From the IMG/VR virus record IMGVR_UViG_3300045923_000005, positions 1-51,763 of that record: a stretch of DNA of 51,763 bases. The stretch is one strand, 5' to 3'. Made by a program: the position numbers and the translations under genes. Positions 10,930 to 11,902 of the stretch are shown here, in pieces (positions within the stretch are counted from its first letter, which is position 1; each line of letters opens with the position of its first letter). The DNA is from a virus. Lineage: Duplodnaviria; Heunggongvirae; Uroviricota; Caudoviricetes. Under the pieces are notes generated by a model. That model saw only the letters and a list, made by a program, of their open reading frames with translations. It was not told the DNA's origin and did no database searches.

Positions 10930-10985
10930 GCCGGGAGGCTTGGCATTTTGGCTCTAATTGCCTGGTGCGAGAGGCCTGTTCCGGC
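10930..10985 (-). ncRNA. repeated pseudoknot-like RNA motif, copy A
   Basis: Core CUCUCGCACCAGGCAAUUAGAGCCAAAAUGCCAA closed by GCCGG-AGGC/GCCU-CCGGC. Confidence 0.65.
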
Positions 10986-10994
10986 TTTACAAAT

Positions 10995-11069
10995 TGGCGC
11001 CCATACCAGGAATCGAACCTGGATCACAGTCTTCGCAGGACTGTACACTATCCGTTATGCTATAAGGGC
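10995..11069 (-). tRNA. tRNA-Arg(GCG)
   Basis: Cloverleaf, loop CTGCGAA, CCA. Confidence 0.85.
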
Positions 11070-11073
11070 AATT

Positions 11074-11147
11074 TGGCGTCCATCCAGGGAGTCGAACCCC
11101 GGCCCGCTGTTTTGGAGACAGCTGTGCTACCGTAACACTTGACGGAC
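11074..11147 (-). tRNA. tRNA-Trp(CCA)
   Basis: Cloverleaf, loop CTCCAAA, CCA. Confidence 0.9.
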
Positions 11148-11153
11148 ATTGAT

Positions 11154-11228
11154 TGGTACCTCACCACGGACTCGAACCGCGATTTGCCGCTAATCAGGCA
11201 GCCGTCCTTGCCTTTGGACGAGTGAGGC
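11154..11228 (-). tRNA. tRNA-Ile(GAT), U37
   Basis: Cloverleaf, loop CTGATTA, CCA. Confidence 0.8.
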
Positions 11229-11234
11229 ATAAAC

Positions 11235-11309
11235 TGGTACCTCGTGACGGGATCAAACCGCCGACATCCTCGGTGTAAACGAGGCGCTCTATCGCTGAGC
11301 TAACGAGGC
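11235..11309 (-). tRNA. tRNA-Val(TAC)
   Basis: Cloverleaf, loop TTTACAC, CCA. Confidence 0.9.
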
Positions 11310-11314
11310 ATAAT

Positions 11315-11393
11315 TGGCGACACCTACGGGATTCGAACCCGTGATCTCTACCGTGACAGGGTAGCGCATTAAGCCAGGCTATGCTAAGGTGCC
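11315..11393 (-). tRNA. tRNA-Asp(GTC)
   Basis: Cloverleaf, loop CTGTCAC, G73, CCA. Confidence 0.9.
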
Positions 11394-11403
11394 ATATTGA
11401 AAT

Positions 11404-11489
11404 TGGTGCGCCGTGATGGATTCGAACCACCGTACCCCGAAGAGATCTGTTTTACAGACAGATTGTTTTAACCACTCACACAACGACGC
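11404..11489 (-). tRNA. tRNA-Tyr(GTA)
   Basis: Long variable arm, loop CTGTAAA, CCA. Confidence 0.9.
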
Positions 11490-11502
11490 ATAAACTTTGA
11501 AT

Positions 11503-11570
11503 TGGTCCAGTATTTGTGCACCCTGCCACACTAGTGTCGGGTGACCGGCTCGGAGACCGGTAGAACTGGC
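11503..11570 (-). ncRNA. CCA-ended tRNA-mimic RNA (68 nt)
   Basis: CCAGU/ACUGG then A-CCA; two internal hairpins ACCGG/CCGGU and CACCC/GGGUG. Confidence 0.55.
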
Positions 11571-11579
11571 AACTAAACT

Positions 11580-11654
11580 TGGAGCCTTCACACGGAATCG
11601 AACCGTGTTCTGTGGATTACAAAACCACCGCGTCACCTTTTACGCTTTGAAGGC
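11580..11654 (-). tRNA. tRNA-Thr(TGT)
   Basis: Cloverleaf, loop TTTGTAA, CCA. Confidence 0.85.
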
Positions 11655-11761
11655 AGAATAAGAAGCCTGTATCGTCAGGCAGAACGATGGATTGAGCACC
11701 TGCACTGGCATCACGCGCCTGTTACAGCGGATGCTCTCGCCCGATGAATAGTCCACAAATT

Positions 11762-11838
11762 TGGTAGCGGAGTCTGGGACTCGAACCCAGGATCTCTTGC
11801 TTATGAGGCAAGCGAGATAGCCACTTCTCCAACCCGCA
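11762..11838 (-). tRNA. tRNA-Met(CAT), initiator-like
   Basis: GCGGG..GGAG start, probable 1-72 mismatch, loop CTCATAA, CCA. Confidence 0.8.
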
Positions 11839-11843
11839 AACGG

Positions 11844-11902
11844 TAGCCGCAGCGTCTTGACATTTCGGCTCTAATTGCCTGGTGTGAGAGGACGTTCTGC
11901 TA
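11844..11902 (-). ncRNA. repeated pseudoknot-like RNA motif, copy B
   Basis: Core CUCUCACACCAGGCAAUUAGAGCCGAAAUGUCAA closed by GCAG-CGUC/GACG-CUGC. Confidence 0.65.

What the first reader, a model, noticed from the sequence alone, without database searches (positions are those of the whole stretch)
10930..11902. Duplicated 34-nt pseudoknot-like core with fully covarying closing stems
Seen: two copies (10930-10985, 11844-11902) share CUCU-C(G/A)CACCAGGCAAUU-AGAG-CC(A/G)AAAUG(C/U)CAA with only 3 substitutions. Their outer stems differ in sequence yet both pair. Loop GGCA can pair with downstream UG(C/U)C, and the C-to-U change keeps a G-U pair. This is strong evidence of selection on RNA structure. 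I cannot match it to a known riboswitch or ribozyme. Inference: a ligand or protein aptamer, or a self-cleaving processing element between tRNAs.
Basis: seen in the sequence. Interest (0 to 1): 0.78.

Follow-up and report, generated by a model that had tools for sequence, protein, structure and literature searches.

The report
Orphan RNase-partner RNA in phage tRNA array
The two look-alike elements between the tRNA genes of this T4-like phage are copies of a widespread, uncatalogued small hairpin RNA that in bacteria always sits beside a small toxin-like ribonuclease gene. The phage carries the RNA without the enzyme, so it is most likely an RNA antidote that the phage makes by piggy-backing on tRNA processing.

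Summary
The duplication is real. Two 58-59 nt hairpins lie on the minus strand (10929-10986, 11846-11904). They share a 35-nt core with 3 substitutions, two of which are compensatory.

Over 100 relatives show an irregular hairpin:
- outer stem
- 3-nt bulge
- pair 10-39
- C.C mismatch
- ACA:UGU
- internal loop CCA/RAAA
- 3-bp stem
- loop AAUUAGA

Covariation is strong at pairs 10-39 and 18-30 and in the outer stem. Neither proposed pseudoknot helix holds up.

There is no Rfam 15 match, and no paper I could find describes it.

Nine of nine solo MuF-C/PBECR proteins, chosen without regard to the RNA, carry this RNA 10-65 nt past their stop codon. These are predicted BECR-fold RNases. The RNA lies on either strand and has its own promoter and terminator. 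No conserved protein neighbour is present.

In phages the RNA occurs without the RNase: in tRNA-array gaps, always co-oriented with the tRNAs, and in the excised spacer of permuted tmRNAs.

Best reading (about 0.5): the RNA is an antitoxin-like partner of the RNase, and the phage copies act as decoys. This is untested.

Earlier notes of this scan report PBECR-RNA pairs on other DNA. The tRNA-array orphans are what this report adds.

The parts
10929..10986 (-). Copy 1: complete 58-nt hairpin RNA (outer stem GCCGGA/UCCCGGC plus GGCC/GGCU... enclosing the conserved core)
   Evidence: Constrained and free folds agree on the hairpin limits. Model R1 scores 60.5 bits, E 9.5e-18.
10934..10979 (-). 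Copy 1: 46-nt core matched by the covariance model. It carries G12-C37 where the family has A-U.
11846..11904 (-). Copy 2: complete 59-nt hairpin RNA
   Evidence: Fold limits. R1 scores 67.2 bits, E 4.9e-20.
11851..11896 (-). Copy 2: 46-nt core, a consensus type-A sequence (CUCUC...CAA junctions)
10995..11069 (-). tRNA-Arg(gcg). Its 3' end lies 8 nt upstream of the copy 1 hairpin, so its 3' processing would define the 5' side of the released RNA.
   Evidence: ARAGORN and Rfam.
10846..10919 (-). tRNA-Pro(tgg). Its 5' end lies 9 nt downstream of copy 1, so RNase P cleavage there would define the 3' side.
11911..11993 (-). tRNA-Leu(tag), ending 6 nt upstream of the copy 2 hairpin
11766..11837 (-). 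tRNA-Met(cat), starting 8 nt downstream of the copy 2 hairpin

Best explanation
Both elements are copies of an undescribed family of small structured RNAs.

Structure. The RNA is an irregular hairpin of about 46 nt plus a variable closing stem. It has invariant unpaired nucleotides: CCA opposite RAAA, and an AANNRRA loop.

In bacteria. In proteobacterial chromosomes, prophages and plasmids this RNA is a separate promoter-to-terminator gene. It sits directly at the 3' end of a solo ~150-aa MuF-C/PBECR gene, which encodes a predicted metal-independent endoRNase of the barnase-EndoU-colicin E5/D-RelE fold. That gene has no protein immunity partner. The most likely mechanism (inferred) is that the folded RNA binds the RNase and holds it inactive, possibly by mimicking its RNA target. 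That would make the pair a type-III-like toxin-antitoxin or abortive-infection module.

In this phage. This T4-like phage has the RNA but not the RNase. The two copies are inserted flush between tRNA genes on the tRNA strand. RNase P, acting at the next tRNA, and 3'-end trimming of the previous tRNA would then cut out a stem-protected ~58-nt RNA. No promoter or terminator is needed (inferred). The phage copies would act as antidote mimics that keep a host or rival-phage PBECR RNase silent during infection, in the manner of the pseudo-ToxI RNA of phage phiTE.

Shown: the family, its fold, the gene linkage, the orphan status in phages, and the tRNA and tmRNA contexts.
Inferred: binding, inhibition, release by tRNA processing, and the counter-defence role.
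For: Family and fold:
- Pattern scans found about 55 instances in IMG/VR contigs and 22 in bacterial genomes.
- Across 49 distinct viral sequences, 90.7% of cells pair, against 65% in shuffles. The covariation score is 0.637 against 0.158 (0 of 500 shuffles), and slid controls pair at 35% or less.
- A second set of 29 instances, ascertained separately (via the genome-contig pattern scan or the PBECR loci), pairs at 94.8%.

Linkage to the RNase:
- ORF clustering around the 76 instances found one family adjacent in 10 loci. It matches Pfam PF18819 MuF_C.
- Nine family members chosen without looking at the RNA all have an R1 hit 10-65 nt after the stop codon, five on the same strand and four convergent, at 34-68 bits.
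- No other conserved protein neighbour appears in 17 loci.

The protein is RNase-like:
- MuF-C is the PBECR domain of Iyer et al. 2017 (PMC5512222).
- It has an invariant H in an FDHG motif, plus invariant R and S-x-Y-x-K.
- The AlphaFold2 model has pLDDT 95. Its best structural matches are BECR RNase toxins: CdiA-CT NC101 (Z 6.0), BrnT (5.9), RelE (5.0) and colicin D (4.9).

The RNA is its own gene:
- Sigma-70-like promoters scoring at least 9 of 12 occur in 67% of 27 loci, against 7.6% of shuffles. The -10 element most often ends 8-12 nt before the hairpin.
- Most loci have a T-run consistent with an intrinsic terminator after the hairpin.

Orphans in phages:
- G000 and three complete phage genomes that carry the RNA lack the protein, while a provirus used as positive control has it.
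- In every locus all tRNAs are on the same strand as the RNA. Fifteen instances abut a tRNA.
- ARAGORN calls a permuted tmRNA spanning the RNA in 3 loci. By eye it sits in the spacer of 6.

Neighbourhoods include restriction-modification systems, a reverse transcriptase, HEPN_AbiV, ParDE, YoeB, integrases and IS66, which are mobile or defence contexts.
Against: - No experiment or binding prediction links the RNA and the protein. Adjacency alone does not show inhibition.
- The solo PBECR is rare: 0 of 400 sampled genomes of the same class. A decoy against it in so many phages needs either a broader target range, such as the PBECR domains of MuF or polyvalent virion proteins, or another partner.
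- Some bacterial genomes have the RNA without the protein. In one locus a Fic/DOC gene sits where the RNase usually is.
- The window's phage record is only 64% complete, so a partner gene may lie outside it.
- The structural matches of the protein are modest (Z 6 or less).
- Many invariant RNA columns were fixed by my own search patterns. Conservation there is partly ascertainment. The covarying positions were free.
Confidence: 0.5

Rival explanations
1. The hairpin is a processing or maturation element. A host or PBECR-type RNase recognises and cuts this site, helping to separate tRNAs and the two pieces of permuted tmRNA. The copy beside the RNase gene would then be its substrate or autoregulatory site rather than its inhibitor.
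For: The hairpin sits flush against tRNA 3' ends in 13 loci. It also lies exactly in the segment that must be excised from permuted tmRNA precursors. BECR toxins such as colicin D and CdiA-CT are tRNA nucleases, and these are among the closest structures.
Against: - Most tRNA junctions in the same array have spacers of only 4-10 nt and no such element, so tRNA release does not need it.
- Phages with the RNA lack the RNase, and the RNase is rare in hosts.
- In bacteria the RNA is a stand-alone sRNA gene with nothing to process.
Confidence: 0.15
2. The RNA mimics a tRNA acceptor end: a helix strand running into unpaired CCA, capped by a mini-hairpin. It acts on a general tRNA-binding factor such as EF-Tu, the CCA-adding enzyme, RNase P or a tRNA-targeting defence nuclease, independently of PBECR.
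For: C15-C16-A17 is invariant and follows helix strand ACA, although my search patterns fixed these columns. The RNA is strongly associated with tRNA and tmRNA genes in phages. The top structural match of the partner protein is an EF-Tu-dependent tRNase.
Against: This rests on resemblance only, with no structural test. The 9 of 9 linkage to PBECR genes points to a specific partner.
Confidence: 0.1
3. The hairpin is merely a terminator, insulator or antisense regulator of the neighbouring gene, and was copied into phage arrays as a stable spacer.
For: In the convergent (type B) arrangement the extended outer stem is followed by a U-run that abuts the RNase stop codon. The RNase mRNA may therefore run into its antisense.
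Against: - The same sense sequence is kept in both orientations relative to the gene.
- Unpaired nucleotides are conserved across very different elements.
- Type A copies need a separate terminator downstream.
- Neither window copy is called terminator-like by any test run here, and transcription must continue through them into the tRNAs downstream.
Confidence: 0.1
4. It is a new class of self-cleaving ribozyme that releases tRNAs.
For: It is small and highly conserved, with invariant unpaired nucleotides, and lies between tRNAs. The order CACACCA-stem-GAAA loosely recalls the hammerhead core order CUGANGA-stem II-GAAA (sequence inspection).
Against: - No match to any Rfam ribozyme family at E<=10.
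- It has only one branch, with no three-way junction or pseudoknot supported by covariation.
- G12 of a hammerhead would be A in several copies.
- The stand-alone sRNA genes next to an RNase gene give no rationale for self-cleavage.
Confidence: 0.05
5. It is an aptamer for a small molecule or a signalling nucleotide (riboswitch or RNA sponge).
For: It has conserved internal loops within a compact fold, and it occurs in defence-island neighbourhoods.
Against: It is never in a 5' leader and has no expression platform. It lies after genes, between tRNAs or inside tmRNA spacers.
Confidence: 0.04

Closest known systems
Type III toxin-antitoxin systems (ToxIN, CptIN, TenpIN; also AvcID and the RNA-controlled AbiF)
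   Same: A protein toxin is paired with a structured non-coding RNA and no protein antitoxin. In ToxIN, CptIN and TenpIN the toxin is an endoRNase. These systems lie on mobile elements and defence islands and act in phage-host conflict (PMC5772629, PMC13682666, PMC10511110).
   Different: - The toxin fold here is BECR (colicin D/RelE-like), not the fold of ToxN (fold named from my own knowledge, not checked here).
- The RNA is a single hairpin, not tandem repeats cut by the toxin.
- It lies downstream of the toxin gene or convergent with it, under its own promoter, rather than upstream in one operon.
- Inhibition is untested.
Pseudo-ToxI of Pectobacterium phage phiTE (RNA mimicry of an antitoxin)
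   Same: A phage carries an antitoxin-like RNA without the toxin, which would let it escape an abortive-infection RNase (PMC3594212).
   Different: - Here the orphan RNA is widespread in unrelated phages.
- It is embedded in tRNA arrays and permuted-tmRNA spacers, not an expanded repeat locus.
- No escape phenotype is known.
PBECR / MuF-C domains of phage MuF and polyvalent proteins (Iyer, Burroughs, Anand, de Souza, Aravind 2017, PMC5512222)
   Same: The partner protein matches Pfam MuF_C and keeps the His and Ser/Thr-type residues described for active PBECR RNases. Solo versions were already noted.
   Different: No RNA partner is mentioned in the passages I retrieved from that paper or from the 2026 BECR classification preprint.
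Intervening segment of circularly permuted (two-piece) tmRNA genes, and tRNA-spacer-derived small RNAs (3'ETS-type)
   Same: The RNA occupies the piece that is cut out of a tRNA-like precursor by the normal tRNA-processing enzymes.
   Different: Known intervening segments are regarded as discarded spacers. Here the spacer holds a conserved RNA family that also exists as a free-standing gene.

Membership tests
   Window copies score 67.2 and 60.5 bits, E 5e-20 and 1e-17. Copy 1 and copy 2 were among the 49 training sequences, so they match partly by construction. Instances not used in training score 34-68 bits.
   Copy 1 itself carries the compensatory G12-C37.
   No PF18819 or A3 match anywhere in the 115.8-kb phage record, which is 64% complete. 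The window copies are orphans, as in other phages.
   In the window the hairpins are flanked 6-9 nt away by tRNAs on both sides. Promoter and terminator are seen in the bacterial loci.
Type III toxin-antitoxin (ToxIN/CptIN/TenpIN) | Antitoxin is an array of tandem RNA repeats processed by the toxin | tested here: not met
   There is a single hairpin per locus. The two window copies are 917 nt apart and separated by tRNAs.
Type III toxin-antitoxin (ToxIN/CptIN/TenpIN) | The RNA gene precedes the toxin in one operon, with a terminator between them | tested here: not met
   The RNA follows the gene or is convergent with it, and has its own promoter.
Type III toxin-antitoxin (ToxIN/CptIN/TenpIN) | The RNA binds and inhibits the protein toxin directly | not testable with these tools
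   Needs co-expression rescue and binding assays.
Known self-cleaving ribozymes and riboswitches (Rfam 15) | Covariance-model match to a curated family | tested here: not met
   Only tRNA reaches the gathering score. Nothing overlaps either copy even at E<=10.
   64% and 87% of cells pair, and pair 18-38 is broken in 22 of 49. The competing pairs 10-39 and 18-30 covary.
BECR-fold RNase toxins (for the partner protein, not encoded in the window) | [quoted passage not shown] | tested here: inconclusive
   Pfam MuF_C matches at E 1e-12 to 1e-14. H61 and S127 are invariant. The best structural matches are all BECR toxins, but at Z 4.7-6.0 only.

The most novel reading that the evidence does not exclude
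BECR-fold RNase toxins of mobile elements are held in check by dedicated structured RNAs instead of immunity proteins. Lytic phages have captured one such antidote RNA and mass-produce it from their tRNA arrays and tmRNA spacers as an RNA-only counter-defence. On this reading, phage tRNA arrays are also launch pads for anti-defence RNAs, not only tRNA supply.
Probability: 0.35. Interest if true: 0.9.

Novelty: new variant of a known kind. Interest (0 to 1): 0.78.

Why it matters
If the RNA neutralises the RNase, three things follow:
- It defines a new toxin-antitoxin or abortive-infection family, in which an RNA antidote serves a colicin D/RelE-fold nuclease that was thought to need protein immunity.
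- It gives a concrete function to some of the unexplained non-tRNA inserts in phage tRNA arrays and in the "discarded" spacer of two-piece tmRNAs.
- It offers a second natural example, much more widespread than phiTE, of phages escaping a suicide system by RNA mimicry.

Whatever the mechanism, the family deserves a place in RNA catalogues. It has more than 100 instances, strong covariation and a fixed protein partner.

Tried and rejected
- Rfam at gathering score and at E<=10 gave nothing on either copy.
- Megablast of the region against 50,697 phage records returned only a 43-nt tRNA match to Agrobacterium phage Atu_ph07.
- Hammerhead, K-turn, T-loop, CsrA-site, CRISPR-repeat, SRP-domain-IV and sigma-70 promoter-on-the-complement resemblances were considered by eye only. 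I dropped them because defining nucleotides or spacings do not fit. On the complement, TTGACA and TCTAAT lie only 7 nt apart.
- The consensus promoter/terminator scanner found nothing in L112 or L113. My own scoring against shuffles did find promoters.
- The search for related loci with the protein in viral contigs gave only 4 loci, two of them already known.
- Four bacterial genomes that hold the RNA elsewhere have no copy of the protein.
- PADLOC and NCBIfam have no model for the protein.
- Foldseek against the PDB gave no match at E<=0.001. The wider VIA search was needed.
- Literature searches for two-piece tmRNA in phages, ribozymes near phage tRNAs, PBECR, type III TA and antitoxin mimics found no description of this RNA.
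- The scan's own index holds no look-alike of the bacterial copies by sequence.
- I did not use complex prediction, because it cannot take RNA.
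Full report
**Setting.**
The window is part of a 115.8-kb uncultured virus record that is 64% complete. Its family-B DNA polymerase is 44% identical to gp43 of T4-like cyanomyoviruses. It also encodes a DnaB-like helicase and a ribonucleotide reductase. ARAGORN finds 36 tRNA genes between 3193 and 13081, all on the minus strand. Rfam adds three more tRNA matches. Most neighbouring tRNAs are 4-10 nt apart. The two elements of the finding fill two of the longer gaps.

**The observation.**
Read on the minus strand, the two copies share CUCUC(G/A)CACCAGGCAAUUAGAGCC(A/G)AAAUG(C/U)CAAG, which is 3 differences in 35 nt. 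The exact 18-mer core occurs twice in the window, and none of 100 shuffles reached two matches. The closing stems differ in sequence and both pair. The complete hairpins span 10929-10986 and 11846-11904. [quoted passage not shown] No Rfam 15 family matches either copy, even at E<=10.

**Relatives and structure.**
- Three pattern scans of IMG/VR left different parts of the core free. Together they returned about 55 genuine instances in unrelated viral contigs. The chance hits lay inside coding sequence and were easy to tell apart.
- The pattern ACACCA-NNN-AAUUAGA-NNN-RAAAUGU gave 33 hits, and in all of them the two free triplets are complementary.
- I aligned 49 distinct 46-nt segments and counted pairs.
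- My structure is: outer stem 1-6:41-46, pair 10-39, 12-14:35-37, 18-20:28-30. It pairs in 90.7% of cells against 65% in shuffles, with covariation 0.637 against 0.158. No shuffle reaches it, and slid controls stay at or below 35%.
- Pair 10-39 is 22 C-G, 22 U-A, 2 G-C, 1 A-U and 1 U-G, with one failure.
- Pair 18-30 is 27 G-C, 9 A-U, 9 C-G and 4 U-A.
- Copy 1 of the window has G12-C37 where the family has A-U. So two of the three differences between the window copies are one compensatory change.
A 2-bp bulge-loop contact does no better than shuffles.
- The fold is therefore an irregular hairpin: closing stem, 3-nt 5' bulge, one pair, a C.C mismatch, ACA:UGU, an internal loop CCA opposite RAAA, a 3-bp stem and a 7-nt loop AANNRRA.
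- Caveat: several "invariant" columns were fixed by my search patterns. The covarying positions were not.

**Context in phages.**
- ARAGORN on all loci shows that every tRNA near an instance is on the same strand as the RNA.
- Fifteen instances have a tRNA within 10-27 nt of the 26-nt core, so the hairpin starts a few bases after the tRNA end.
- In L018, L019 and L070 ARAGORN calls a permuted tmRNA that spans the motif. L021, L043 and L075 show the same ...CCACCA / hairpin / GGGG...GGUUUCGACA arrangement. There the RNA is the intervening segment that must be excised from a two-piece tmRNA precursor.
- In L017 and L036 the RNA caps the acceptor stem of a permuted tRNA-like RNA.
- Elsewhere it lies between structural genes of T4-like phages, in a tail module and next to a Zot gene. 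It often comes just before a terminator or forms the tip of one.
- Earlier notes of this scan (e1-5645341, e1-5659002) had described stem-closed RNA cassettes shared between tmRNA spacers and tRNA-array gaps. I saw the same pattern independently for this family.

**Context in bacteria and the protein partner.**
- One scan of 185,579 species genomes gave 22 exact matches, mostly in Gamma- and Betaproteobacteria.
- There the RNA looks like a free-standing gene. In 27 loci a sigma-70-like promoter scoring at least 9 of 12 lies upstream in 67% of cases, against 7.6% of shuffles. Its -10 element most often ends 8-12 nt before the hairpin.
- In most of these loci a T-run consistent with an intrinsic terminator follows. 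Type A copies (CUCUC...CAA/CAU junctions) have a separate terminator 20-45 nt downstream. Type B copies (GUCCC...CGU) use their own extended stem plus a U-run.
- Clustering all ORFs within 4 kb of 76 instances gave one recurrent family: about 150 aa, present in 10 loci and always immediately adjacent. It matches Pfam MuF_C.
- Iyer et al. (PMC5512222) identify MuF-C as PBECR, a predicted metal-independent endoRNase of the barnase-EndoU-colicin E5/D-RelE fold, and note solo versions in phages.
- The family has at least 195 clusters at 90% identity.
All nine have an R1 match 10-65 nt past the stop codon, five on the gene's strand and four convergent.
- Two distant partial relatives have none.
- In 17 loci no other protein family is shared. 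The only extra "families" are spurious ORFs read across the conserved RNA.
- Neighbours include MmeI-type and type I restriction-modification genes, a reverse transcriptase, HEPN_AbiV, ParDE, YoeB-Phd, integrases, a resolvase, RepA and IS66.

**The protein as an RNase.**
H61, R118, S127, Y129 and K131 are invariant in 48 sequences. The AlphaFold2 model has mean pLDDT 95. Foldseek gave only weak rows, with BrnT and HigB2 among them. The exhaustive VIA search put BECR RNase toxins at the top:
- CdiA-CT NC101, Z 6.0
- BrnT, Z 5.9
- RelE, Z 5.0
- colicin D tRNase, Z 4.9 and 4.7
- then YafQ, YoeB and HigB

These Z values are modest, so the fold assignment rests on Pfam, the literature and a consistent hit list. 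It does not rest on a strong structural match. PADLOC and NCBIfam have no model for the protein.

**Orphans.**
The window's genome has no MuF_C or family match. Neither do three complete phage genomes that carry the RNA (363 kb, 95 kb and 92 kb). A provirus used as positive control does have the gene. Four bacterial genomes with the RNA elsewhere also lack the protein. The protein was found in 0 of 400 sampled genomes of the same class, so the module is sporadic.

**Mechanism.**
- Shown: there is a structured RNA family. It is tightly and exclusively linked to a toxin-like RNase gene that has no protein immunity partner. It is transcribed independently. Phages carry orphan copies placed where tRNA processing would excise them.
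- Inferred: the RNA binds and silences the RNase, as in a type III toxin-antitoxin system. The phage copies would then be antidote mimics, as pseudo-ToxI is for phiTE (PMC3594212). They would be released by RNase P and 3' trimming and protected by the closing stem.
- A speculative detail: the invariant CCA following a helix strand resembles a tRNA acceptor end, and several BECR toxins cut tRNAs, so the RNA may be a substrate mimic.
- I put about 0.5 on the antitoxin-plus-decoy reading as a whole. I put about 0.9 on the narrower statement that this is a real RNA family partnered with PBECR genes.
- The rivals are a processing signal, a general tRNA-end mimic, a plain terminator or antisense element, a ribozyme and an aptamer. 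Each is listed with what would refute it.

**Comparison and novelty.**
The pair works like a type III toxin-antitoxin system but fails the family's defining features: tandem repeats, the upstream position in one operon, and the ToxN-type fold. I therefore do not file it there. The RNA is not in Rfam 15. I found no description of an RNA partner of PBECR in the passages I read from PMC5512222 or from the 2026 BECR classification preprint, nor in the other searches. Within this scan, AI notes on other genomes (e1-5139217, e1-5224983, e1-5266111, e1-5228163, e1-5288373, e1-5136252) already propose that PBECR genes travel with partner small RNAs. I could not check whether any of those is this same RNA family, and sequence look-ups found none. 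This report adds a defined fold with covariation, a 9-of-9 blind linkage test, and the finding that phages carry the RNA alone inside tRNA arrays and tmRNA spacers.

Noticed in passing
L017:2600-2790 (+), same in L036: A permuted tRNA-like RNA. The order is: T-arm GGUGG-UGCAAAU-CCACC, acceptor 3' strand CUCCUCC-A, the motif hairpin, then acceptor 5' strand GGAGGAG with D-arm GCUC-AGUCUAGUA-GAGC. A GGAUCC copy at each end could close the molecule. Neither ARAGORN nor Rfam calls it.
   Followed up: partly
L018:760-1165, L019 (reverse strand 9095-9457), L070 (reverse strand 9386-9823): Permuted (two-piece) tmRNA genes in viral contigs, with tag peptides ending in ALAA. Each has this RNA as its intervening segment.
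   Followed up: partly
window 7042-7112, 8071-8125, 13187-13256 (minus strand): Three tRNA matches by Rfam (58.0, 29.9 and 32.7 bits) that ARAGORN did not call. The 8071-8125 match covers only model positions 9-63.
   Followed up: no
window 11490-11579 and 11655-11765 (minus strand): Two further 90- and 111-nt gaps in the same tRNA array with no tRNA or Rfam match. Their folds are not clearly better than shuffles (z -1.4 and -0.3).
   Followed up: partly
L100:844-1986 (minus strand) and the motif at L100:752-797: In a Lysobacterales MAG a Fic/DOC-family gene ends 54 nt before the RNA core, in the position usually held by the PBECR gene. This may be a swapped toxin partner.
   Followed up: no
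L094:744-1052, L099:3285-3692: Orphan bacterial copies of the RNA lie next to Phd/YefM-like and ParD-like antitoxin genes, which suggests toxin-antitoxin-rich islands.
   Followed up: no
L047:8005-9114 with the motif at L047:9467-9512: One instance lies about 350 nt downstream of a Zot-family gene, so this may be a filamentous-phage-like element.
   Followed up: no
L086 and L088 (Halioglobus MAG chromosome OZ253569.1): Two separate places in one chromosome carry near-identical PBECR-plus-RNA modules with identical promoter and terminator flanks, so the module is duplicated.
   Followed up: no
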